Sequence record: PV806337.1
From: a phage
Strand: one strand, 5' to 3'
Length of the DNA: 64,000 nucleotides
Numbering within the stretch: the first letter of the stretch is position 1; each line of letters opens with the position of its first letter. The notes beneath the pieces were generated by a model. The model was not told where the DNA came from and did not search any database. It worked only from the letters and a program-made list of their open reading frames with translations. Shown here one piece after another: positions 4,713 through 25,538 of this stretch. The translations under genes and the position numbers were made by a program.

Positions 4713-6089
4713 ATGACTATTGATATTAATAAGCTGAAAGAAGAACTTGGTCTGGGTGATCTGGCTAAATCTCTGGAAGGTCTGACCGCTGCTCAGAAAG
4801 CTCAGGAAGCTGAACGTATGCGTAAAGAGCAGGAAGAAAAAGAACTGGCTCGTATGAATGACCTGGTTTCTAAAGCTGTTGGTGAAGACCGTAAGCGTCT
4901 GGAAGAGGCTCTGGATCTGGTTAAGTCTCTGGATGAGAAATCTAAGAAGAGCGCAGAACTGTTTGCACAAACTGTAGAAAAACAACAGGAAACTATTGTT
5001 GGTCTTCAGGACGAAATTAAATCTCTGCTAACAGCTCGTGAAGGTCGTTCCTTTGTTGGTGATAGTGTTGCTAAAGCACTGTACGGTACTCAGGAAAACT
5101 TTGAAGACGAAGTAGAAAAACTGGTTCTGTTGTCTTACGTAATGGAGAAAGGTGTATTCGAAACCGAACACGGTCAAAAACACCTGAAAGCAGTGAATCA
5201 GTCTTCTTCTGTAGAAGTTTCTAGTGAAAGCTATGAAACTATTTTCTCTCAGCGTATTATCCGTGACCTGCAGAAAGAGCTGGTAGTTGGCGCACTGTTC
5301 GAAGAACTGCCGATGTCCAGTAAGATTCTTACTATGCTGGTTGAACCGGATGCTGGTAAAGCTACTTGGGTTGCTGCTTCTACTTATGGTACCGATACAA
5401 CTACTGGTGAGGAAGTTAAAGGCGCTCTTAAAGAGATCCACTTCAGTACTTACAAACTGGCTGCTAAGTCCTTCATTACTGATGAAACTGAAGAAGATGC
5501 AATCTTCTCCCTGCTGCCACTACTGCGTAAACGTCTGATTGAAGCACACGCTGTTTCTATCGAAGAAGCCTTCATGACTGGTGATGGTTCCGGTAAGCCG
5601 AAAGGTCTGCTGACTCTTGCTAGTGAAGATAGTGCTAAAGTTATTACTGAAGCTAAAGCTGATGGTTCCGTACTGGTAACTGCTAAAACTATCTCTAAAC
5701 TGCGTCGTAAACTGGGCCGTCATGGTCTGAAACTGAGCAAACTGGTACTGATCGTATCTATGGATGCTTACTACGATCTGCTGGAAGATGAAGAATGGCA
5801 GGATGTTGCACAGGTTGGTAACGATGCTGTTAAACTGCAGGGTCAGGTTGGTCGTATTTATGGTCTGCCGGTTGTAGTTTCTGAATACTTCCCAGCTAAA
5901 GCTACTTCCGCAGAGTTCGCAGTTATTGTTTATAAAGATAACTTCGTAATGCCACGCCAGCGTGCTGTTACTGTTGAACGTGAGCGCCAAGCTGGTAAAC
6001 AGCGTGACGCATACTACGTTACTCAGCGTGTTAACCTGCAACGTTACTTTGCAAATGGCGTTGTATCTGGTGCTTACGCTGCATCTTAA
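4713..6089 (+). CDS. major capsid protein with N-terminal scaffolding-like domain
   Basis: 458 aa; N-terminal charged coiled-coil region then capsid-fold body; strongly biased high-expression codons (ctg, cgt, ggt); followed by strong terminator. Confidence 0.85.
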   Translation: MTIDINKLKEELGLGDLAKSLEGLTAAQKAQEAERMRKEQEEKELARMNDLVSKAVGEDRKRLEEALDLVKSLDEKSKKSAELFAQTVEKQQETIVGLQDEIKSLLTAREGRSFVGDSVAKALYGTQENFEDEVEKLVLLSYVMEKGVFETEHGQKHLKAVNQSSSVEVSSESYETIFSQRIIRDLQKELVVGALFEELPMSSKILTMLVEPDAGKATWVAASTYGTDTTTGEEVKGALKEIHFSTYKLAAKSFITDETEEDAIFSLLPLLRKRLIEAHAVSIEEAFMTGDGSGKPKGLLTLASEDSAKVITEAKADGSVLVTAKTISKLRRKLGRHGLKLSKLVLIVSMDAYYDLLEDEEWQDVAQVGNDAVKLQGQVGRIYGLPVVVSEYFPAKATSAEFAVIVYKDNFVMPRQRAVTVERERQAGKQRDAYYVTQRVNLQRYFANGVVSGAYAAS

Positions 6090-6110
6090 TACAGGCTTTT
6101 CAGCCGATAA

Positions 6111-6137
6111 GGAGAGCTTCGGCTCTCCTTTTTTATT
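6111..6137 (+). terminator. rho-independent terminator after major capsid gene
   Basis: GGAGAGC-TTCG-GCTCTCC hairpin followed by TTTTTTATT. Confidence 0.8.
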
Positions 6138-6148
6138 GGGAAAAATAA

Positions 6149-6661
6149 ATGCAAATAATCACAGCTGAAGACTATAGATTATATGGCGGGTTAAAACGAC
6201 CTGAATTAGAATCTGGAGTAGAGATGATGATTACTGCTGCCAATGCGCTGATTACTAGCCTTTTAGGTATGGATGATGCTGATGCGGTAGACCAGTTAAT
6301 CAATACAAAACCTACTCGTAAAAAATACTTCTTAAGTTCCCCCTCGGCTACTTCAGTAACCAAAATGACTATTAATGATAAGGAGATAGATCCCGAACAG
6401 TATAAGTTATACTCTGATGGGGTTATACTTCTTAAATTTAGTCCTCCAGAAGGTTATATGGATGTAGAGTACACACAAGGTGGATTTAACCCAATTCCTG
6501 AAGATCTCAAACTTGCAGCATGTATGCTAGTAGATCATTGGCATAAACAGGATTACCGTCAAGCTAAAACAATTGGCGGAGAAACAGTTACTTTTAATAA
6601 TACTAAGTCTGGTATTCCAGAACATATTCGTACTATTATTGAAGTTTACAGGAGAGTATAA
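6149..6661 (+). CDS. head completion / head-tail adaptor protein
   Basis: 170-aa ORF at the head-tail joining position after capsid gene; product assigned by synteny only. Confidence 0.55.
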   Translation: MQIITAEDYRLYGGLKRPELESGVEMMITAANALITSLLGMDDADAVDQLINTKPTRKKYFLSSPSATSVTKMTINDKEIDPEQYKLYSDGVILLKFSPPEGYMDVEYTQGGFNPIPEDLKLAACMLVDHWHKQDYRQAKTIGGETVTFNNTKSGIPEHIRTIIEVYRRV

Positions 6662-7428
6662 TGTCTCTTTCTGATTTAGCTACACAAATTATTAAGGAGC
6701 AGCTAGATAATGTTGGGCGTTCCGAGAACAATAAGAATACTGTTGTATATTCTGTTGAAACAGGACTAAAAGATCCTACTAGGGATGGTACTGTTGCTCA
6801 GGTATCTTTTAAGTTCTCAAAACCTGTATCCCAAGATCTCCTTAATGTTAGGACCGCTTCTATTCTAAAAGCAGTTTCTTCTAGCTTAGATCTAACAGGA
6901 GACTTAGGGGCTTTAGAAAGTCTTATTCAAGCAACCGCCGGTAAAAAATCCTCTGTAGGTAAAAAACGTTCTACTGGTAGAGTTCAAGTAAACTTTGGGG
7001 ATCCTAGAGACGTAGAAGATGGATATTCTGGTGCAGTAACAGGTGCTTCTGGTCGTTTTGTATCAAATAGTAATATGAAGGTTATTCTGGAGTTGGTTGC
7101 TAAAGAATACTTAATAAAGGATATGAAAAAAGCAGGAGCTCCCCTTAAATTTAGAACAGGTCGTTTTGCAAATTCTCTAAAAGTTAAAGATGTTATGCTT
7201 AGAGATGCTGGAACTAGCAAAGGTGCTCCTGAATTAAATGTTACATATAATTATATGGTACGTCCATATTCAGTATTTAATCCTGCAGTATCTACATATC
7301 GAAGATTGTCATTACGACCCTACCCAGGTGCTAGAAACCCCCAAAGACTAATTGGAGAGGCGATAGCTAAAGCTGCAAGAGACTTAATTCACTCCAGGTA
7401 CAAAATTAAGGTTAATCAAGGAACCTAA
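6661..7428 (+). CDS. neck / tail completion protein
   Basis: 255-aa ORF with AGGAGAG RBS; assigned by synteny. Confidence 0.5.
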   Translation: MSLSDLATQIIKEQLDNVGRSENNKNTVVYSVETGLKDPTRDGTVAQVSFKFSKPVSQDLLNVRTASILKAVSSSLDLTGDLGALESLIQATAGKKSSVGKKRSTGRVQVNFGDPRDVEDGYSGAVTGASGRFVSNSNMKVILELVAKEYLIKDMKKAGAPLKFRTGRFANSLKVKDVMLRDAGTSKGAPELNVTYNYMVRPYSVFNPAVSTYRRLSLRPYPGARNPQRLIGEAIAKAARDLIHSRYKIKVNQGT

Positions 7429-7431
7429 TAA

Positions 7432-7917
7432 ATGGATCACAGAACAAGTATAGCACAAGCTCTGGTTGACCGAATAGCCAAACAAATGGATGGCTCTCAA
7501 CCAGATGAATATTTTAATAACTTGTATGGAAACGTCTCACGTCAAACTTATAAGTTTGAGGAAATACGAGAGTTTCCTTATGTTGCAGTTCATATCGGAA
7601 CTGAAACTGGGCAGTATCTTCCCTCAGGTCAACAGTGGATGTTTTTAGAACTTCCTATCCTGGTGTATGATAAAGAGAAAACAGACATTCAAGAGCAACT
7701 TGAAAAACTCGTAGCGGATATAAAAACCGTTATTGACACAGGTGGAAATTTAGAATATACTGTTAGTAAACCTAATGGATCGACCTTCCCATGTGAGGCG
7801 ACTGATATGAGCATTACATCAGTTAGTACAGATGAGGGTCTACTGGCCCCATATGGTTTAGCAGAAATAAATGTAACAGTGAGGTATCAGCCTCCACGTA
7901 GGTCACTTCGCAGATAA
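7432..7917 (+). CDS. tail terminator protein
   Basis: 161-aa ORF directly upstream of tail tube gene; assigned by synteny. Confidence 0.5.
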   Translation: MDHRTSIAQALVDRIAKQMDGSQPDEYFNNLYGNVSRQTYKFEEIREFPYVAVHIGTETGQYLPSGQQWMFLELPILVYDKEKTDIQEQLEKLVADIKTVIDTGGNLEYTVSKPNGSTFPCEATDMSITSVSTDEGLLAPYGLAEINVTVRYQPPRRSLRR

Positions 7918-18421: not shown

Positions 18422-20478
18422 TGATTTCAAATAATGCACCAGCCAAAATGGTCTTAAATAGTATAATGACTGGATATACTTTGGCTTATGTCCAGCACTC
18501 CATCTATACTGATTATGATGTTATTGGTAGATCTTTTTGGTTAAAAATAGGAGAAAGTATAGATAGACGTGATTACACCGGTATAGATACTTTCTTCGTA
18601 ATGATTAATAATCTAACCCCCTCTACCTCCTATGAGATTCAGGGGGCTTTCTATGACTCAATTATTGACTCAGAGCTTTTAAATGCAAAAATTGGTATCA
18701 ACCTCTCTAATGAAACTAACTTTAGAACAAAGGAAAAGCCAATAATTGTTGCAGCAAGATCTGAATCAGAACCCGTCGACGTAGGTGTTGGTGCTCCAAT
18801 AGTTGTTGTAGATACTACTGGTGAAGCTAGTTACTGCACTATTGAATTAAAAAGTACTGCATCAGAAGATAGTGAATGGGTTAAGTATTATATAGGTGCG
18901 CTGGGACCTACTATCAAATTTGGTGGTGTTCCTGTTGGTGACTATAAGATCAGAATATCTGGTCAAGTTACGATGCCAGATGGTGTTACAGTTGACTCAT
19001 CTGGTTATTATGAATATCCTAGCGTTTTCACTGTAGCTTATAATTTCGTACCCCCTACTGCACCTACTAACATTGCCTTTAAAGCTGCACGAATTGCAGA
19101 TGGTAAGGAACGATATGATGTTAGAATAGAATGGGACTGGGAACGTGGTGCTGGTGCTAATGTCCGTGAATTTCTGGTTACTTATATAAACTCTGAAGAA
19201 TATGCCAAGACTGGCTGGGCTAAAGCTCAAAAGATAAACGTTGGAGCTGCTAGAGCTGCAACGATTATATCATTCCCATGGAAAGTTGAGCATACTTTTA
19301 AGGTATCATCAATTGCCTGGGGACCAAATAAGCAAGATATAACAGAATCAGCTCCTGCAACATTTATATTGAATGAAGATACTCCTCTAGACAACAGTTT
19401 TGTCAATGAGACGGGTATTGATGTTAATTATGCCTTTATTAAGGGCAGCATGAAAGATGGAGAAATCTGGAGACAGACATTCTTAATCGACGCAGCTACT
19501 GGTGCTATTAACATTGGTCTGCTAGATGAAGAAGGAAAAGCACCTATTTCTTTTGACCCTATAAACCGTGTTGTTAACGTTGATGGTAAAGTAATTACTA
19601 GAGATATTAATGCTGCGAACTTTATCATGACTAACTTATCAGGTAAGGATAATCCAGCAATTTACACTCAAGGTAAATCTTGGGGGGATAATAATTCAGG
19701 TATTTGGATGGGTATGGATAATACCTCTGCCAAAGCTAAACTAGACATTGGTAATGCTACACAATGGATACGTTATGATGGTACTACTTTGCGTATCTCT
19801 AGTGGTGTAGTAATTGGAACACCAAATGGTGACGTAGATATTGAAACTGGTTTACAAGGTAAACAGACAGTATTTGTTTATAAGTTAGCAACATCTCTAC
19901 CTGCTAAACCACTAGAACAAGATTATCCGCCTCCTGGTTGGTCAAAAACTCCACCTAACCGTACAGATATGACACAGAATATCTATGCCACTACAGGTAC
20001 GCTTGATCCCGTTACTAACAAACTTCTTGAAGGTACTAGCTGGTCTGATGTAGTTCAGTGGAGTGGTACTGAGGGTACTATAGGACATGATGGACAACGT
20101 GGTCCTGGAATGTACTCCTTAGGTATTCCTGGTCTTGGGGGCTGGGATGATGGGCAGGCTAATGCCTTCTTCCAGAATAACTTTGGTAGTCCTCCTGTTA
20201 GATATGATGTATTAACCGAATTTAATAGTAATGCTCCACAATCAGCATTTACAAGGCAATGGAATGGGTCTGGTTGGGTTAGCCCTGCAATGGTTCTCCA
20301 CGGAAACATGATTGTTAATGGGACGGTGACGGCAGATAAAATTGTAGCAGGAAATGCTTTCTTATCTCAGATCGGTGTTAACATCATTTATGATAGAAAT
20401 GCTGCGTTATCCGGGAATCCTGAGGCATACTACAAGATGAAGATAGACCTAAATAGTGGGTATATCCATATAAGGTAA
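18421..20478 (+). CDS. tail tip protein (pb4-like)
   Basis: about 685 aa from ATG 18421 overlapping upstream stop; beta-rich, FN3-like repeats; ORF-track start 18406 is a GTG. Confidence 0.65.
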   Translation: MISNNAPAKMVLNSIMTGYTLAYVQHSIYTDYDVIGRSFWLKIGESIDRRDYTGIDTFFVMINNLTPSTSYEIQGAFYDSIIDSELLNAKIGINLSNETNFRTKEKPIIVAARSESEPVDVGVGAPIVVVDTTGEASYCTIELKSTASEDSEWVKYYIGALGPTIKFGGVPVGDYKIRISGQVTMPDGVTVDSSGYYEYPSVFTVAYNFVPPTAPTNIAFKAARIADGKERYDVRIEWDWERGAGANVREFLVTYINSEEYAKTGWAKAQKINVGAARAATIISFPWKVEHTFKVSSIAWGPNKQDITESAPATFILNEDTPLDNSFVNETGIDVNYAFIKGSMKDGEIWRQTFLIDAATGAINIGLLDEEGKAPISFDPINRVVNVDGKVITRDINAANFIMTNLSGKDNPAIYTQGKSWGDNNSGIWMGMDNTSAKAKLDIGNATQWIRYDGTTLRISSGVVIGTPNGDVDIETGLQGKQTVFVYKLATSLPAKPLEQDYPPPGWSKTPPNRTDMTQNIYATTGTLDPVTNKLLEGTSWSDVVQWSGTEGTIGHDGQRGPGMYSLGIPGLGGWDDGQANAFFQNNFGSPPVRYDVLTEFNSNAPQSAFTRQWNGSGWVSPAMVLHGNMIVNGTVTADKIVAGNAFLSQIGVNIIYDRNAALSGNPEAYYKMKIDLNSGYIHIR

Positions 20479-20484
20479 TAAATA

Positions 20485-20907
20485 ATGAGTACTGAAAATA
20501 GAGTTATAGACTTAGTGATAGATGAGAAAGTACCTTATGGTCTAATGATGCAATTCTTAGATGTTGATGATAGTACTTATCCACCTACAAATACCCCTGT
20601 TAACTTAACGGGGTATTCTCTAAGGGGTACTATAAAGGCCGGGCTTGATGAGAATGCGGAAACTTTGGCATCTTTTACTACTAAAATTATTGATGCTGCT
20701 CAAGGTGCCATAGCTATAAGTTTACCTGTAGAGGCGGTAGATAATATTGGTGAAAAAGCTACCAAAGAGAGAGATAAGTATAACCCTCGCCAACGTTTTG
20801 CAGGATACTATGATATAATTATGACACGAGATGTCATAGGATCAGCTATTAGCTCTTTTCGTATAATGGAGGGTAAAGTATTTATCAGTGATGGGGTAAC
20901 TAGATAA
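20485..20907 (+). CDS. tail collar protein (p132-like)
   Basis: 140-aa ORF between pb4-like and fibre genes. Confidence 0.55.
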
Positions 20908-23015
20908 TGGCAATAACTACTAAGATTATTGTACAACAAATATTAAATATTGATGATACTAAAGCTACTGCTAGTAAATTTCCTAGATACACAGTAACTC
21001 TTGGAAATTCTATTAGCTCTATTACTGCTAATGAGTTAGTATCCTCTATAGAGGCCGCTGCTGCATCCGCTGCTGCTGCAAAAATTAGTGAAGATAAAGC
21101 AAAAATCAGTGAGACTAATGCTGCCGCTTCCGCTGTAGACTCCAGTGGTTTTAGGAATGAGGCGGAAATATTTTCTGAGCAAGCTGCTGCATCGGCATCT
21201 GCGGCAAAAACCTCGGAAACCAATGCAAAAACCTCGGAAACAAAAGCTAAGGCTAGTGAAACTAATGCTGCAGGATCTGCAACTTCTGCCAACCAATCTG
21301 TAACTACTATTCAAGGGCTTAAATCAGATGTTGAACAATTAAAATCTGATACCAAGGCCATTAAAAATAGTGCTGTAACAGAGACAACAGCTTTAAAATC
21401 AGATGTTGAACAATTAAAATCTGATACCCAGGCCATTAAAAATAGTGCTGTAACAGAGACAGCAGCTTTAAAAGCAGATGTTGAGCAATTAAAAACAGAT
21501 ACACAAGGTATTAAGGATAGCACGGTATCTGAGACAACAACTTTAAAAAACCAAGCTGCAACTTCTGCAACTAGTGCTGCTAATTCTGCTACTGAAGCAG
21601 GAAAACAAGCTACTAGTGCTGCCAATAGTGCTAATACTGCTAAAACTGAAGCCGACCGTTCAAAAACTGAGGCTGATAGATCAGAAGCTGCTGCTAATTC
21701 TACCCCCGACATTCAACCTCTTCCAGATGTATGGATACCGTTTAATGATTCTCTAGATATGATCACCGGCTTTGCACCAGGCTATAAAAAAATAACAGTT
21801 GGTGATGAGGAAATAACACTGCCTAGCGACAAGATTGTTAGCTTTACTCGTGCATCAACTGCGACCTATATCAATAAGTCCGGTATATTGACCATTGCTG
21901 AAGTTGACGAACCGCGATTTGAACGTGAAGGTTTGCTGATTGAAGGACAAAGAACTAACCTGCTAATCAATTCAACTGATCCGACTAAATGGAACAAGTC
22001 ATCAAATATGATCTTAGATAGATCAGGTGTAGATGATTTCGGATTCCAGTACGCAAAATTTACATTAAAACCAGAAATGGTAGGGCAAACTTCAGCGATT
22101 AACATAGTAACCGTTTCCGGCAGCAGAGGTTTTGATGTAACAGGAAATGAAAAGTATGTAACCATATCATGCAGGGCGCAAAGTGGGACTCCAAATTTAA
22201 GATGCCGATTACGATTTGAAAACTACGATGGATCTGCTTATACATTTTTGGGTGATGCTTACGTAAATCTGACAGATTTATCAATTGAAAAAACTGGCGG
22301 CGCTGCAAATCGTATTACTGCAAGGGCTGTTAAAGATGAAGCAAGCAAATGGATTTTCTTTGAGGCAACAATTAAAGCACTTGATACAGAAAATATGATC
22401 GGTGCAATGGTGCAGTATGCACCAGCAAAAGGGGGAGGTACTGGTGTAGATGATTATATTTATATTGCGACCCCTCAAGTTGAAGGTGGGGCATGTGCTT
22501 CATCCTTTATTATTACAGAAGCAACTCCAGTGACAAGGGCTAGTGATATGGTTACAATGCCAATCAAAAACAACCTTTACAATTTGCCGTTTACAGTACT
22601 TGTGGAAGCTAATAAAAACTGGAGTATAACGCCAAATGCTGCGCCTCGTGTTTTCGATACTAGAGGTCATCAATCTGGTGCGGCAATTATTCTTGCTTTC
22701 GGATCTGCCGAAGGCGATAATGATGGATTCCCTTATTGCGATATAGGTAAATCAAACAGAAGGGTTTACGAGAATGCAAAACTAAAAAAGATGATTATGG
22801 GAATGAGAGTAAAGAGTGATTACAATAATTGCTGTGTAAGTAATGCCAGAATATCAAGCGAAACAAAAACGGAATGGAGATACATACAATCAACGGCTAC
22901 TATAAGGATTGGAGGACAAACAAATACTGGAGAACGACATTTATTTGGCCATATCCGAAACTTTAGAATCTGGCATAAGGAACTAACTGATAGACAAATG
23001 AAGGAGTATGTATGA
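20907..23015 (+). CDS. L-shaped tail fibre protein, proximal part (LtfA-like) with C-terminal lectin-like domain
   Basis: 702 aa; N-terminal Ala/Ser/Thr-rich region and 25-aa tandem coiled-coil repeats; C-terminal jellyroll/LamG-like segment ending in HIRNFRIWHKELTDRQM. Confidence 0.75.
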   Translation: MAITTKIIVQQILNIDDTKATASKFPRYTVTLGNSISSITANELVSSIEAAAASAAAAKISEDKAKISETNAAASAVDSSGFRNEAEIFSEQAAASASAAKTSETNAKTSETKAKASETNAAGSATSANQSVTTIQGLKSDVEQLKSDTKAIKNSAVTETTALKSDVEQLKSDTQAIKNSAVTETAALKADVEQLKTDTQGIKDSTVSETTTLKNQAATSATSAANSATEAGKQATSAANSANTAKTEADRSKTEADRSEAAANSTPDIQPLPDVWIPFNDSLDMITGFAPGYKKITVGDEEITLPSDKIVSFTRASTATYINKSGILTIAEVDEPRFEREGLLIEGQRTNLLINSTDPTKWNKSSNMILDRSGVDDFGFQYAKFTLKPEMVGQTSAINIVTVSGSRGFDVTGNEKYVTISCRAQSGTPNLRCRLRFENYDGSAYTFLGDAYVNLTDLSIEKTGGAANRITARAVKDEASKWIFFEATIKALDTENMIGAMVQYAPAKGGGTGVDDYIYIATPQVEGGACASSFIITEATPVTRASDMVTMPIKNNLYNLPFTVLVEANKNWSITPNAAPRVFDTRGHQSGAAIILAFGSAEGDNDGFPYCDIGKSNRRVYENAKLKKMIMGMRVKSDYNNCCVSNARISSETKTEWRYIQSTATIRIGGQTNTGERHLFGHIRNFRIWHKELTDRQMKEYV
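21323..21548 (+). repeat. 3 x 75-bp in-frame tandem repeat inside LtfA-like gene
   Basis: units start at about 21323, 21398 and 21473; first two near-identical (ATCAGATGTTGAACAATTAAAATCTGATACC...), third diverged; encode LKSDVEQLKSDTxAIKNSAVTETxA. Confidence 0.85.
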
Positions 23016-23290
23016 GAGATATAATCCTAAAGTTCACAGATAAATCAACATATAAAGATTTTCTCATTCAAATAGGGTGGGATACTAATGAAACTTTGCA
23101 AAACCAAATAATGCTTGATGAAATTGGCTATACTTATACTGAAATCTCTCCGCTAGGCGATGAGGAGCCTAGATGCATCCGTAATGAAGGGTATTATGTT
23201 AATGTAAGGATTCTTGATGAATCCTTTACTTACGAATACTTCGAGCCTTTTATAGTTCAGCTAGAACAGCCTCTTAGAGTATGGGCATAA
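23012..23290 (+). CDS. hypothetical small protein between fibre genes
   Basis: 92 aa; AAGGAG RBS 5 nt upstream of ATG; start overlaps LtfA stop. Confidence 0.45.
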   Translation: MRDIILKFTDKSTYKDFLIQIGWDTNETLQNQIMLDEIGYTYTEISPLGDEEPRCIRNEGYYVNVRILDESFTYEYFEPFIVQLEQPLRVWA

Positions 23291-23299
23291 GGTTTTATA

Positions 23300-25030
23300 A
23301 TGGTAACTAAAACAGTAATTCCTACGGATATTACAAAACTTAAAAATGAGTCACTTAACAAGAATAATAACTTAAGTGACTTAGCAGACCGTGCAGCAGC
23401 ATGGCTAAATGTGTGTCCTATTGGGTCCACCCCTCTTGCGGGGGACCCTGTTGGGGACTACGATGCTGCAACCAAACGTTGGGTAGAGAATAAGATTAAC
23501 ACTGGTACAGTCGGCCCCACTATGAATGGTGTTATGAACTACGGCGTTGGTGATTTCCACCTTCGAGATAGTCGTGCATATATTCAACCATACGAAGTCG
23601 TTTCTGACGGACAGCTTCTTAATAGGGCTGACTGGCCTGAACTTTGGGCGTATGCACAAATGGTTGGGGCTATAGATGATTCAGTTTGGTTAGGAGATAA
23701 ATTCCAGCGCGGTAAGTACTCATCAGGTAATGGAACAACAACCTTTCGTGTTCCAGATAAGAATGGGGTGCAGGAGGGATCAATACGCGCTCTTTATGGC
23801 CGTGGAGATGGTGGGAATAGTGGTGCAAATGGGCAACTGTTCGAATCCGCTGCGCCTAATATTACAGGTTTTTTCACCACATATGCCTCTCAAACCTATG
23901 CCCAGGCATTAGGACATACAGGTGGTTGCTTTAGTGCAAACAATAATGCGTTTCCTGACGGAAGAGGTGACGGAATCGCTCCAGGGTCTGCAGCTCTTGC
24001 TGGACGTTATAATACCTGCGACTTCAATGCCTCAATATCAAGTCCGATTTACGGGGCATCAACAGATGAGATTCTTACACGAAACTTTGTCGGCGTCTGG
24101 GTAATCCGTGCTTCTGGTGGGTTCGTGGCAGCAAATACATCATGGAGTGTTATTAACGCTGATAAAACAACCCCCGATTCAGGTGTTGTTGTTTCTGGTG
24201 GTAGTGTTAAATCTGAATATAAATCTCCCAGTGCAAGTGTAACAGCGGAACTAAAATCAAGTAAAGTAATTAATGGTGCATGGGGTGTTAGCTTAACTAT
24301 AACAGATGATAGAGGGATCCCTGTAAGCATTAAGTATGACAGTAATGGTCAGTTTTCAACATCTCATAGGCCATCTGGAGTCGGTACTGGGAGTTCCTAT
24401 ACTCATTGCGCTTATCGCGCGCCAGACTGGTGGAATAACACAGCATATAGTGCCTTCGTACCAATTCTTGGAGGTGGTAGCGGTAATTCACTAAAGAACT
24501 ATAGATCTTTTGCTTGTTTTGGACAAATATCTTATCCTGATTCTAGTAATAGTTATCCTAGAGCTGCAATTGCTCAAGTAAGGGATTGGGCACTACCAGA
24601 TGGTGAACAAGGTAACGGCAAGAGTATTACCGTGTTTACGTTTATTGATAATTCATTTGACCTTCAATATGGGTACAACGATGGTTCGCTAAACTATATT
24701 TTTTCAAAATCTCCAATTTGTGATGAAAGATTAAAGAAAAATATTGAATCCATTGATACTAATATTGCAATAAGTAATATTAAGCAGATGTCATATAAAT
24801 CATACATCTATAAAAATGACGAGAATGAACAGGTGCGCCGTGGTTTTATAGCTCAGGATTTACAGAAAATAGATCCCCAATATGTACGGGAATATGGAGA
24901 TCCTGGAAGAGAGAAAACGTTGGCCATTGATGAAAACGTTATGTTGCTTGATTCAGTTGCTGCGGTTAAGTGGCTTATTAATAAAGTTGAGGAGTTGCAA
25001 GAAGAAATAAATGTATTGAAAGCTAAGTAA
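23300..25030 (+). CDS. L-shaped tail fibre protein, distal receptor-binding part with C-terminal intramolecular chaperone domain (LtfB-like)
   Basis: 576 aa; N-terminal fibre motif (YDAATKRWVENKI); tail-collar-like segment (ADWPELWAYA...FRVPDKNG); C-terminal ~110 aa resemble S74-type auto-cleaving chaperone domain (…IAQDLQKIDPQYV…LLDSVAAVKWLINKVEELQEEINVLKAK). Confidence 0.8.
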   Translation: MVTKTVIPTDITKLKNESLNKNNNLSDLADRAAAWLNVCPIGSTPLAGDPVGDYDAATKRWVENKINTGTVGPTMNGVMNYGVGDFHLRDSRAYIQPYEVVSDGQLLNRADWPELWAYAQMVGAIDDSVWLGDKFQRGKYSSGNGTTTFRVPDKNGVQEGSIRALYGRGDGGNSGANGQLFESAAPNITGFFTTYASQTYAQALGHTGGCFSANNNAFPDGRGDGIAPGSAALAGRYNTCDFNASISSPIYGASTDEILTRNFVGVWVIRASGGFVAANTSWSVINADKTTPDSGVVVSGGSVKSEYKSPSASVTAELKSSKVINGAWGVSLTITDDRGIPVSIKYDSNGQFSTSHRPSGVGTGSSYTHCAYRAPDWWNNTAYSAFVPILGGGSGNSLKNYRSFACFGQISYPDSSNSYPRAAIAQVRDWALPDGEQGNGKSITVFTFIDNSFDLQYGYNDGSLNYIFSKSPICDERLKKNIESIDTNIAISNIKQMSYKSYIYKNDENEQVRRGFIAQDLQKIDPQYVREYGDPGREKTLAIDENVMLLDSVAAVKWLINKVEELQEEINVLKAK

Positions 25031-25033
25031 AAG

Positions 25034-25068
25034 AAAACCCCAGAGGGATATCCCTCTGGGGTTTATTA
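25034..25068. terminator. bidirectional rho-independent terminator at late/early module junction
   Basis: perfect palindrome AAAACCCCAGAGGGA-TA-TCCCTCTGGGGTTT flanked by A-run and T-run; lies between convergent LtfB and dut genes. Confidence 0.85.
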
Positions 25069-25091
25069 TTATTATTTATTTGATACGTAGA

Positions 25092-25538
25092 TTATTTACT
25101 TCCTGAGCTTCCAAAGCCGCCTTCTCCACGATTAGTCTCCCCTAGTTCGTCAACGATTTCAAAATTATGGGTTGAATAGTGGGGTAGTACCACTAGCTGA
25201 CAAAGTCTTTCAAAATTTTCCAAAGTTTGAATTTCAGAACCATAGTTGAACAGGTTCATCTTAATAGTTCCACGATAGTCTGAGTCGATCACTCCTGCAG
25301 TATTTGCAATCATCAGATGGCGTTTACCTAAAGAGCTGCGTGGAACTACCAAACCGAACCAACCTCGCGGAATTTCCACCGCGACACCGGTGTCAATCAT
25401 TAAGGATTTGCCTGGTGCAATAGCGCGTAAGTCTGCGGCAGGGTTAGTACCAAAGAATGCTCGCAGATCCATACCTGCGGCATCTTCGGAACCAATCTTA
25501 GGCATACAATCTGGATGAGTTAATTTAATTTTAATCAT
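25092..25538 (-). CDS. dut: dUTP diphosphatase
   Basis: 148 aa; dUTPase motifs AGMDLRA, GLVVPRSSLGKRH, GVIDSDYRG, C-terminal RGEGGFGSSG. Confidence 0.9.
   Translation of the reverse strand: MIKIKLTHPDCMPKIGSEDAAGMDLRAFFGTNPAADLRAIAPGKSLMIDTGVAVEIPRGWFGLVVPRSSLGKRHLMIANTAGVIDSDYRGTIKMNLFNYGSEIQTLENFERLCQLVVLPHYSTHNFEIVDELGETNRGEGGFGSSGSK

What the first reader, a model, noticed from the sequence alone, without database searches (positions are those of the whole stretch)
20907..25030. L-shaped tail fibre encoded as two genes with a 92-aa ORF between them
The fibre is split into a 702-aa LtfA-like protein (N-terminal coiled-coil repeats, C-terminal LamG/jellyroll-like lectin domain with an RNFRIW motif) and a 576-aa LtfB-like protein (fibre N-terminal motif, collar-like region, receptor domain, C-terminal auto-chaperone). 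Two independent receptor-binding modules imply a branched fibre with dual glycan specificity. The 92-aa ORF between them (23012-23290) has a strong RBS and may be an assembly or attachment factor.
Basis: partly seen in the sequence, partly recalled or inferred. Interest (0 to 1): 0.55.

Follow-up and report, generated by a model that had tools for sequence, protein, structure and literature searches.

The report
Two-part T5-like lateral tail fibre
This is the side tail fibre locus of a T5-like phage, of a two-protein type already described in phages AKFV33 and IrisVonRoten; the only open point is the small 92-residue protein between the two fibre genes, which always accompanies the sugar-binding end of the first fibre protein.

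Summary
The three ORFs exist exactly as described: 702 aa, 92 aa and 576 aa on the + strand. They are tightly packed behind ltfC and end at a bidirectional terminator. The window is a Tequintavirus, 99% identical here to E. coli phage NG_A1. The split is real, not a frameshift.

It is not the DT57C LtfA/LtfB type, because both docking elements of that system are absent. It is the AKFV33/IrisVonRoten type, already modelled in 2025 as a proximal fibre with a C-terminal galectin-like domain carrying a distal T-shaped fibre with two receptor-binding domains and an S74 chaperone.

New here:
- LtfA's C-terminal part is a conserved neck, a jelly roll like the gene-transfer-agent head spike fibre, and a LamG-like domain.
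- This C-terminal module and the 92-aa gene are adjacent in 90 of 90 loci, across six phage groups.
- LtfB's first ~16 residues form a conserved plug found only downstream of that pair (108 of 108 testable cases).
- The lectin core (aa 293-677) is swapped as a cassette within a conserved frame of neck, LtfA tail, 92-aa protein and plug.

The 92-aa protein has a confident α+β model but no informative match. Its role as joint component or chaperone is inferred, not shown. Ordinary locus, with one modestly interesting open question.

The parts
20485..20907 (+). ltfC, the collar protein that anchors the lateral fibre (140 aa)
   Evidence: Pfam PF23926 LtfC, E 8.4e-15. It has the same position and length as DT57C LtfC. 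The DT57C cryo-EM structure shows a dodecameric LtfC ring holding the LtfA N-termini (PMC10713586).
20907..21677 (+). ltfA N-terminal part (aa 1-257): T5-type anchor peptide followed by an Ala/Ser/Thr-rich coiled-coil shaft
   Evidence: Residues 1-99 match chain 8hqz_d, DT57C LtfA (E 4e-20). Residues 1-128 are 40% identical to DT57C LtfA 1-205. In DT57C the helix from T40 onward forms a trimeric coiled coil.
21321..21548 (+). 3 x 75-bp tandem repeat (25-aa units, KSDVEQLKSDTKAIKNSAVTETTAL) inside the LtfA shaft
   Evidence: Tandem Repeats Finder: period 75, 3.0 copies, 87% matches.
21678..21836 (+). LtfA neck (aa 258-310), containing the near-invariant motif PLPDVWIPFNDSLDMITGF
   Evidence: It is invariant across 33 homologues and in loci with and without the plug gene. 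Similarity at aa 258-292 tracks similarity of the 92-aa protein (rho 0.83).
21837..22586 (+). LtfA jelly roll 1 (aa 311-560), of the gene-transfer-agent head-spike-fibre type
   Evidence: NCBIfam NF048003 matches aa 344-545 at 63.7 bits against a cut-off of 36. PDB 6tb9 Rcc01080 gives E 5e-7. The AF2 core has pLDDT 80-95. Its Foldseek hits are weak (best E 5e-4, TM-scores 0.2-0.5): phage Pa193 and E217 baseplate/fibre chains, galectin-9, CBM4/22 and legume lectins.
22587..23012 (+). LtfA jelly roll 2 (aa ~561-702), LamG-like, ending in GHIRNFRIWHKELTDRQMKEYV
   Evidence: Pfam Laminin_G_3 matches 13 of 13 diverse homologues (best E 3e-9). The window copy scores E 0.0084, below the cut-off. The AF2 model is low-confidence here. 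Residues 608-642 are the most variable (mean identity 0.33), while 678-702 are conserved and track the 92-aa protein (rho 0.67).
23001..23006 (+). Shine-Dalgarno sequence AAGGAG for the 92-aa ORF, lying inside the end of ltfA
   Evidence: Read directly from the sequence: a 5-nt spacer to the ATG at 23012, and an ATGA stop/start overlap.
23012..23290 (+). 92-aa acidic protein (pI 4.25), PHROG 1361; constant partner of the LtfA C-terminal (lectin) module and candidate joint component
23300..23350 (+). LtfB N-terminal 'plug' peptide MVTKTVIPTDITKLKNE (aa 1-17)
   Evidence: It is conserved on otherwise unrelated third-gene products of 98-586 aa. In a viral-contig scan, all 108 testable N-terminal occurrences had the 92-aa gene and the lectin module upstream.
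23351..24220 (+). LtfB aa 18-307: NLSDLADRAAAWLNV motif and collar/gp12-like region (RBD1 in the published model of the homologue)
   Evidence: 63% identical to DT57C LtfA 511-821 and 59% to DT57C LtfB 206-511. The homologue IrisVonRoten Gp24 is described as having a Gp12-like RBD1 (PMC11990801).
24221..24718 (+). LtfB aa 308-473: variable distal domain (T5-like RBD2 in the published model of the homologue)
   Evidence: At 95% identity or more, this half is shared with only 14 records (NG_A1, I14, L6jm, YJin-2024a, Stokescottia, VSe12, EC100 series); all other records are below 60%. Domain assignment is by homology to Gp24 and was not modelled here.
24719..25030 (+). LtfB aa 474-576: intramolecular chaperone (Peptidase_S74), starting at the motif C-D-E-R-L-K
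   Evidence: Pfam PF13884 matches aa 474-529, E 3.8e-14. Motif comparison with relatives, which have SDxRLK.
25035..25064 (.). Bidirectional intrinsic terminator between the convergent ltfB and dut genes
   Evidence: 13-bp stem with 8 GC pairs, and T-runs on both strands.

Best explanation
The locus encodes a two-segment lateral (L-shaped) tail fibre of the AKFV33/IrisVonRoten type.

Proximal segment. LtfA trimers are anchored in the LtfC collar by their T5-type N-termini and extend as a coiled coil. Each chain ends in a conserved neck followed by two lectin-type jelly rolls, one like the gene-transfer-agent head spike fibre and one LamG-like. These probably bind a surface polysaccharide.

Distal segment. 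LtfB is homologous to the distal half of DT57C LtfA. By homology it has a gp12-like domain, a T5-like tip and a self-cleaving S74 chaperone. It is not covalently linked to LtfA. It is held at the end of LtfA through its conserved N-terminal plug peptide.

The 92-aa protein. It is made by coupled translation with LtfA and is a constant partner of LtfA's C-terminal (lectin) module. Most likely it is part of, or needed to build, the joint that receives the plug.

Evolution and function. The lectin core (LtfA aa 293-677) and the LtfB distal domains are exchanged horizontally as cassettes. The frame of neck, LtfA tail, 92-aa protein and plug stays with the lineage. The fibre as a whole would mediate reversible binding to O-antigen or another glycan before the central receptor-binding protein engages its outer-membrane receptor.

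Shown here: gene layout, homologies, co-occurrence and the mosaic pattern. Inferred: physical attachment, the structural role of the 92-aa protein, and glycan binding by this allele.
For: Layout, coupling and terminator.

T5-type anchor and LtfC: with the DT57C cryo-EM structure (PMC10713586).

Same three-gene layout in AKFV33 and IrisVonRoten: LtfA is 51-65% identical and LtfB 51-57% identical over the aligned length. The IrisVonRoten Gp22/Gp24 complex was modelled as a proximal fibre with a galectin-like domain plus a distal T-shaped fibre (PMC11990801). The AKFV33 LtfA homologue was detected in virions at 95.8 kDa with 57% peptide coverage (PMC3326045).

Lectin folds. The related RcGTA head spike fibre binds capsular polysaccharide (PMC10218006 and PMC7296036).

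Co-occurrence: lectin module and 92-aa gene adjacent in 90 of 90 loci; plug always downstream of that pair in 108 of 108 testable cases.

Mosaic pattern: similarity of the 92-aa protein tracks LtfA 258-292 (rho 0.83), LtfA 678-702 (0.67) and the plug (0.80, Mantel p 5e-4), but LtfA 293-677 only at 0.05-0.38.

Third-gene products share only their first 17-40 residues. Maffei et al. had already noted conservation at the far N-terminus of distal fibre subunits in Drexlerviridae (PMC8594841).
Against: No physical evidence that LtfB binds LtfA, or that the 92-aa protein is in the virion; the AKFV33 proteomics analysed only four gel bands.

The 92-aa gene is kept intact in about 40 lambdoid prophage loci and in Vequintaviruses that have no plug-bearing gene next to it. 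Its basic role therefore cannot depend on a distal fibre.

The correlations may reflect shared lineage and recombination break-points rather than physical contact.

The AF2 model of the LtfA C-terminal part is confident only for its core. No multimer prediction could be run.

The window's LamG match is below Pfam's threshold.
Confidence: 0.62

Rival explanations
1. The 92-aa protein is a dedicated, non-structural assembly chaperone for the lectin-terminated fibre. It would be the positional equivalent of lambda Tfa, absent from the virion and unrelated to LtfB attachment. LtfB would dock directly onto LtfA.
For: It sits immediately after the fibre gene, where tfa sits after stf, including in lambdoid prophages that have a Stf-type N-terminus (PF08400) on the fibre. 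It is retained where there is no plug-bearing gene. It is small and acidic. LtfA, unlike LtfB, has no intramolecular chaperone.
Against: It shows no sequence or fold similarity to any known tail-fibre assembly protein. The variable lectin core is exchanged without it, unlike typical tip-plus-chaperone pairs, which transfer together. Coiled coils and monomeric jelly-roll lectins do not usually need a dedicated chaperone (general knowledge).
Confidence: 0.3
2. This is a DT57C-type branched fibre: LtfB hangs as a side branch from the middle of LtfA, and both proteins act as independent receptor-binding arms.
For: The gene order ltfC-ltfA-...-ltfB and the T5-type LtfA N-terminus are shared with DT57C. 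The LtfB body is 59% identical to DT57C LtfB 206-511.
Against: No match to the phiEco32 gp14-like docking region (DT57C LtfA 223-471). No match to the gp15-like first 45 residues of DT57C LtfB. LtfA has no S74 domain. DT57C has no small ORF between its two genes.
Confidence: 0.05
3. The two large ORFs are one gene broken by a sequencing error, or the 92-aa ORF is a spurious ORF.
For: In the two closest public records ltfB is split into two ORFs. The 92-aa ORF and ltfB are in the same frame, separated by TAA plus 9 nt.
Against: All three ORFs are intact here. The LtfA C-terminus (...RNFRIWHKELTDRQMKEYV) and the LtfB initiator Met are conserved ends across the aligned and tabulated homologues. 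The 92-aa ORF is conserved as a separate protein in 211 phage records. The breaks in NG_A1 and VSe12 are single-base homopolymer changes inside ltfB, not at the gene junctions. The shared reading frame is not conserved: the spacing is 9 to 12 nt in other loci.
Confidence: 0.01

Closest known systems
Lateral tail fibre of Tequintavirus IrisVonRoten (Bas32): Gp22, Gp23, Gp24 (Humolli et al. 2025, PMC11990801)
   Same: Same three-gene layout after ltfC. LtfA is 65% identical overall and its C-terminal part 75% identical. The 92-aa protein is 97% identical. LtfB is 51% identical over its full length, with an identical N-terminus. The published model (proximal fibre with a galectin-like end, plus a distal T-shaped dual-RBD fibre with an intramolecular chaperone) fits this locus.
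   Different: The alleles of the lectin core and of the LtfB distal half differ, so receptor specificity probably differs (Bas32 infects O16-expressing K-12). The LtfA shaft is 94 residues shorter. The paper assigns no role to the 92-aa Gp23.
E. coli O157 phage vB_EcoS_AKFV33, ORF137/136/135 ('ltpA/ltpB', Niu et al. 2012, PMC3326045)
   Same: Same layout. ORF137 was confirmed as a virion protein by mass spectrometry. The plug and the NLSDLADRAAAWLNV region of ORF135 are nearly identical to LtfB.
   Different: The small protein is only 34% identical and the lectin module 36% identical. AKFV33 represents a second, distant allele of the same module.
Branched lateral fibre of DT57C and DT571/2: LtfA/LtfB (Golomidova et al. 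2016, PMC4728585; Ayala et al. 2023, PMC10713586)
   Same: T5-type anchor in the LtfC ring, coiled-coil shaft, and a distal body with a collar/gp12-like region and an S74 chaperone. The principle of more than one receptor-binding module per fibre is shared.
   Different: In DT57C, LtfA is one long chain that ends in its own S74 domain, and LtfB docks on a phiEco32 gp14-like region through a gp15-like N-terminus. All three features are absent here. DT57C has no 92-aa gene and no lectin jelly rolls.
RcGTA head spike fibre Rcc01080 (GhsB), PDB 6TB9
   Same: Homologous jelly-roll domain. It is an experimentally shown capsule-polysaccharide binder, and it is attached to its base by a short N-terminal peptide.
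   Different: It is a monomeric head decoration of a gene transfer agent, not the end of a trimeric tail fibre. It has no LamG-like second domain. Whether it has a small partner gene was not examined.
Anchor-and-branch receptor-binding systems with conserved N-terminal docking peptides (Klebsiella KP32/KP34-type phages, G7C gp63.1/gp66, CBA120 tailspikes); recalled from memory, not tested here
   Same: An interchangeable second receptor-binding protein carries a short conserved N-terminal peptide or domain that docks onto a first, virion-anchored protein.
   Different: Those systems use T4 gp10-like or XD-type branching domains. Here the candidate socket is a lectin-terminated fibre end plus a separate 92-aa protein.

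Membership tests
DT57C-type branched LTF (LtfA/LtfB) | LtfA N-terminus of T5 type, inserted in an LtfC collar | tested here: met
   8hqz match to aa 1-99, E 4e-20. LtfC Pfam hit on the upstream gene.
DT57C-type branched LTF (LtfA/LtfB) | phiEco32 gp14-like docking region in the LtfA shaft (DT57C aa 223-471) | tested here: not met
   BLASTP of window LtfA against phiEco32 gp14 gives no hit, and against DT57C LtfA only aa 1-128 align. The control comparison, DT57C LtfA against gp14, gives 44% identity and E 1e-53.
DT57C-type branched LTF (LtfA/LtfB) | LtfB N-terminal ~45 aa similar to phiEco32 gp15 | tested here: not met
   Window LtfB aligns to gp15 only from aa 49 onward and to DT57C LtfB only from its aa 206. 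The control, DT57C LtfB 1-45 against gp15 1-45, is 71% identical.
DT57C-type branched LTF (LtfA/LtfB) | Both fibre proteins end in a Peptidase_S74 intramolecular chaperone | tested here: not met
   S74 is found in LtfB only. LtfA has no Pfam hit at E 0.01 and ends in a LamG-like domain.
AKFV33/IrisVonRoten-type two-segment LTF | Gene order ltfC, lectin-terminated ltfA, ~90-aa ORF, plug-bearing ltfB | tested here: met
AKFV33/IrisVonRoten-type two-segment LTF | Full-length homology of both large proteins | tested here: met
   LtfA: 65% identity to Bas32 Gp22 over the full length, and 51% to AKFV33 ORF137 over aa 53-702 (plus 56% over aa 1-134). LtfB: 51% to Gp24 and 57% to ORF135.
AKFV33/IrisVonRoten-type two-segment LTF | T-shaped distal fibre fold with a gp12-like RBD1 and a T5-like RBD2 | not tested
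The assignment rests on homology to Gp24 (PMC11990801).
GTA head spike fibre domain (NCBIfam NF048003) | Score above the curated cut-off | tested here: met
   63.7 bits against a cut-off of 36, aa 344-545, profile positions 1-181 of 182.
Laminin_G_3 / concanavalin A-like lectin (Pfam PF13385) | Score above the gathering threshold | tested here: inconclusive
   The window copy scores 16.7 bits against 27.6 (E 0.0084). All 13 diverse homologues match, best E 3e-9. The AF2 model is low-confidence in this region.
Peptidase_S74 intramolecular chaperone | Domain match, and a Ser-Lys dyad in the motif S-D-x-R-x-K | tested here: inconclusive
   The domain match is clear (53.2 bits against a cut-off of 22). 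The motif reads C474-D-E-R-L-K479: the Lys is present and Ser is replaced by Cys. Bas32, AKFV33 and phiEco32 have Ser.
Tail fibre assembly proteins (lambda Tfa, T4 gp38, gp57A types) | Sequence or fold similarity to a known fibre chaperone | tested here: not met

The most novel reading that the evidence does not exclude
The 92-aa protein is a structural 'knee' protein. Together with the invariant neck and the last ~25 residues of the lectin-terminated fibre, it would form a universal socket for the M-x-T-x-T-x-IP-x-DI-x-x-LK plug. That would let Tequintavirus, Dhillonvirus, Nonagvirus, Drexlerviridae and lambdoid prophages attach quite different distal fibres (98 to 586 aa) to the same joint, while swapping the lectin core independently. 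This would be a portable two-level exchange system for host range.
Probability: 0.33. Interest if true: 0.5.

Novelty: new member of a known kind. Interest (0 to 1): 0.3.

Why it matters
Lateral fibres set which O-antigen types a T5-like phage can penetrate, so their modular structure matters for predicting and engineering host range.

The two large proteins add nothing new beyond another allele combination. What could be useful is the rule found here. A lectin-ended proximal fibre, a ~90-aa partner and a 16-residue plug form a conserved frame in several unrelated coliphage groups. Two cassettes, the lectin core and the distal fibre body, are exchanged separately within it. If the small protein is the joint, it marks where distal fibres can be swapped without disturbing assembly, and it gives function to a family (PHROG 1361) that has none.

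Tried and rejected
1. Frameshift or single-gene idea: rejected. The ORF ends are conserved across the homologues examined, and the breaks in the NG_A1 and VSe12 records are homopolymer indels inside ltfB.

2. Read-through from the 92-aa ORF into ltfB (same frame, TAA plus 9 nt): rejected as a conserved feature, because the spacing is 9 to 12 nt in other loci.

3. Giant proteins with up to 13 'copies' of the 92-aa domain. They are PKD-repeat arrays. Each repeat scores only 4-14 bits and single units are not significant. This is an artefact of summed repeat scores, so there are no genuine fusions.

5. Virion proteomics. The AKFV33 study analysed only four gel bands. rV5 has no small-ORF homologue between gp41 and gp40. 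Neither can say whether the 92-aa protein is structural.

6. AF2 of the LtfA C-terminal 439 aa: only the core (model residues ~90-270) was confident, so the neck and the LamG-like part could not be interpreted structurally. A profile of the last 150 aa found no relative with a solved structure.

7. Promoter scan: no excess over shuffled sequence (12 found against 14.9 expected), so no internal promoter is claimed.

Full report
**What is there.** The window is part of a T5-like phage genome. The region 20400-25100 is 99.2% identical to E. coli phage NG_A1 and 95.9% identical to Salmonella phage VSe12, both Tequintavirus. Upstream lie a pb3-like protein (by position and annotation), pb4 (four Pfam PB4 domains) and LtfC (Pfam PF23926). 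The three ORFs of the finding are exactly as stated: 20907-23015 (702 aa), 23012-23290 (92 aa) and 23300-25030 (576 aa). ltfC and ltfA overlap by one base. ltfA and the 92-aa ORF overlap as ATGA, with AAGGAG 5 nt before the start codon. ltfB starts 9 nt after the 92-aa stop. A strong bidirectional terminator follows at 25035-25064, before the convergent dut gene. The four genes therefore form the tightly packed end of a late tail-gene block, and the ATGA overlap suggests that the 92-aa protein is translated in step with LtfA.

**Not a frameshift.** The LtfA C-terminus and the LtfB initiator Met are conserved ends across the homologues aligned or tabulated here, out of 2,587 database relatives of the LtfA C-terminal part. 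The 92-aa protein is conserved as a separate ORF in 211 phage records. In NG_A1 and VSe12 ltfB is annotated as two ORFs. An alignment shows that this is due to single-base length changes in homopolymer runs inside ltfB (T6 to T5, C4 to C5, C5 to C4), which are most likely sequencing errors in those records. The window's copy is intact.

**LtfA.**
- Residues 1-99 match the solved N-terminus of DT57C LtfA (8hqz, E 4e-20). In the cryo-EM structure this part inserts into the dodecameric LtfC ring and continues as a trimeric coiled coil (PMC10713586).
- The shaft is Ala/Ser/Thr-rich and contains a 3 x 25-aa tandem repeat.
- From aa 258 the protein changes character. A near-invariant neck (PLPDVWIPFNDSLDMITGF) is followed by a jelly roll at aa 311-560 that matches the NCBIfam 'GTA_spike_fiber' domain above its cut-off and the RcGTA head spike fibre Rcc01080 (PDB 6tb9). 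That fibre binds capsular polysaccharide (PMC10218006 and PMC7296036).
- The AF2 model is confident only for this core. Its Foldseek hits are weak (best E 5e-4, TM-scores 0.2-0.5): phage Pa193 and E217 baseplate/fibre chains, galectin-9, CBM4/22 and legume lectins.
The window's own copy is below threshold (E 0.0084).
- The 'lectin-like jelly roll' call is therefore supported, and there are in fact two such domains. LtfA has no S74 chaperone.

**LtfB.** Pfam Peptidase_S74 matches aa 474-529. Residues 3-307 are 63% identical to DT57C LtfA 511-821, residues 30-336 are 59% identical to DT57C LtfB 206-511, and residues 49-570 are 47% identical to phiEco32 gp15. LtfB thus corresponds to the distal half of the DT57C fibres.

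**Relation to the DT57C model.** Golomidova et al. (PMC4728585) defined LtfA/LtfB. In their model LtfB docks through a phiEco32 gp15-like N-terminus onto a gp14-like region in the LtfA shaft, and both proteins end in S74 domains. None of these three features is present here, although the same tests give clear positives for DT57C itself. DT57C also has no small ORF between its two genes. The locus is therefore not a member of that type.

It belongs to the type first seen in AKFV33. There the two genes were called ltpA and ltpB, and the LtfA homologue was detected in virions at 95.8 kDa (PMC3326045). It is the type modelled for IrisVonRoten (Bas32) in 2025. Gp22 is a proximal fibre whose C-terminus carries a 'galectin-like' domain proposed as an extra receptor-binding domain. 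Gp24 is a distal 'T-shaped' fibre with a gp12-like RBD1, a T5-like RBD2 and an intramolecular chaperone, attached to the proximal fibre (PMC11990801). Bas32 can infect K-12 with restored O16 antigen (PMC8594841). The main anatomy is therefore already known. The paper gives no role to the 92-aa Gp23.

**The 92-aa protein and the module around it.**
- tblastn finds the LtfA C-terminal 432 aa in 225 phage records and the 92-aa protein in 211. These include Tequintavirus, Dhillonvirus (KarlBarth), Nonagvirus (JenP1), Drexlerviridae (EC195), lambdoid Jouyvirus and related prophages (ev207), and Vequintavirus (CarlMeissner, a 110-aa version).
- The same C-terminal part is fused to unrelated N-terminal anchors: the T5 type here, and PF08400 Stf type, PF12571 and PF03406 elsewhere.
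- In 90 of 90 loci examined, the lectin module lies directly upstream of the small gene. The gap is 0-3 nt in all but a few with partial matches.
- Downstream there are two classes. In the first, a third gene starts 9-12 nt after the stop codon with the conserved peptide M-x-T-x-T-x-IP-x-DI-x-x-LK. Its products range from 98 to 586 aa and share only their first 17-40 residues.
- In the second class, about 40 closely related lambdoid prophage loci carry a 97-aa membrane protein instead and have no second fibre gene. Vequintaviruses also lack the plug.
- The reverse test scanned viral contigs for the back-translated plug motif. Of 118 hits, 108 were at the N-terminus of an ORF, and all 108 had both the 92-aa gene and the lectin module upstream. 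The other 10 were chance matches, apart from one locus cut at a contig end.
- In summary, the plug implies the pair, the pair members imply each other, and the pair does not imply the plug.

**Mosaic pattern.** In 38 non-redundant plug-bearing loci, pairwise identity of the 92-aa protein correlates with that of LtfA 258-292 (rho 0.83), LtfA 678-702 (0.67) and the 16-residue plug (0.80, Mantel p 5e-4). Across LtfA 293-677 the correlation is only 0.05-0.38. For example, the Drexlerviridae phage EC195 shares 91% identity in the lectin part but only 47% in the small protein, while the T5-like L6jm shares 43% and 75%. The lectin core is therefore exchanged horizontally as a cassette, and the frame of neck, LtfA tail, 92-aa protein and plug stays with the lineage. 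The small protein evidently does not need to match the variable lectin surface. This argues against a chaperone specific to the receptor-binding tip and fits a partner of the constant parts. These correlations can also arise from shared descent and recombination break-points, so they are suggestive only.

**Mechanism proposed.** LtfA trimers are anchored in the LtfC ring, and each chain ends in two lectin-type domains splayed at the end of the coiled coil. LtfB trimers attach there through the plug. The 92-aa protein, made in step with LtfA, binds the constant neck and tail of LtfA and most likely forms or builds the socket. LtfB matures by S74 self-cleavage. The fibre binds surface glycans reversibly with up to three kinds of domain, before the central receptor-binding protein acts. 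The layout, homologies and co-occurrence are shown here. Attachment, the structural role of the small protein and glycan binding are inferred. The main rival is that the small protein is a non-structural chaperone or cap for the lectin end. This is supported by its retention in loci without a plug gene and by its Tfa-like position.

**Verdict.** The locus is a new allele combination of a known fibre type. The only open question of some interest is the function of the 92-aa protein (PHROG 1361) and the plug-and-frame rule described above.

Noticed in passing
window 24719-24736 (LtfB aa 474-479): The S74 chaperone motif reads C-D-E-R-L-K, whereas relatives (Bas32 Gp24, AKFV33 ORF135, phiEco32 gp15) have S-D-x-R-L-K. 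The presumed nucleophilic Ser of the Ser-Lys dyad is therefore a Cys. The L6jm-type allele shares this variant.
   Followed up: partly
L003 (NG_A1) 4839-6590 and L001 (VSe12) 5879-7630, against window 23290-25040: In the two closest public genomes ltfB is annotated as two ORFs. The cause is single-base length changes in homopolymer runs (T6/T5, C4/C5, C5/C4), probably sequencing errors in those records. In NG_A1, ltfC is also annotated short and ltfA starts late.
   Followed up: partly
window 23412-23414 (LtfB aa 39): The window has Cys (TGT) in the otherwise invariant motif AAWLNV-R-PIGSTPLAGDP. NG_A1, VSe12, Bas32, AKFV33 and DT57C all have Arg (CGT).
   Followed up: no
L004 (phage ev207) 5584-9293, and about 40 prophage loci among L015-L058: In lambdoid prophages the lectin fibre and 92-aa pair is followed by a conserved 97-aa predicted membrane protein (MDISPLLHALCAVAAQ...) instead of a second fibre. 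In ev207 the next genes are the sitABCD manganese/iron transporter genes, apparently prophage cargo.
   Followed up: no
window 23012-23290 and 23300-25030: The 92-aa ORF and ltfB are in the same reading frame, separated only by TAA and 9 nt. This is not conserved in the family (9 to 12 nt elsewhere), so programmed read-through is unlikely.
   Followed up: yes
proteins P0156, P0159, P0176 and similar: A profile of the 92-aa family gives E-values down to 6e-19 against giant PKD-repeat proteins, purely by adding weak per-repeat scores of 4-14 bits each. The shared pattern (L.L.F.D...W.....Y.V.VR..D) may be coincidence.
   Followed up: yes
window 21717-23012, against Drexlerviridae phages (EC195, swan01, XY3, tuinn): The LtfA lectin part is about 90% identical to the side tail fibre ends of ~50-kb T1-like phages. 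That is closer than to most other T5-like phages (36-77%), which indicates recent transfer between phage families.
   Followed up: partly
homologues P0027-P0029 and P0047, against LtfA: Proteins with C-terminal parts 96-97% identical to the window's have total lengths of 634 to 723 aa. The length variation therefore lies in the shaft upstream, possibly in the number of 25-aa repeats at 21321-21548. This was not checked.
   Followed up: no
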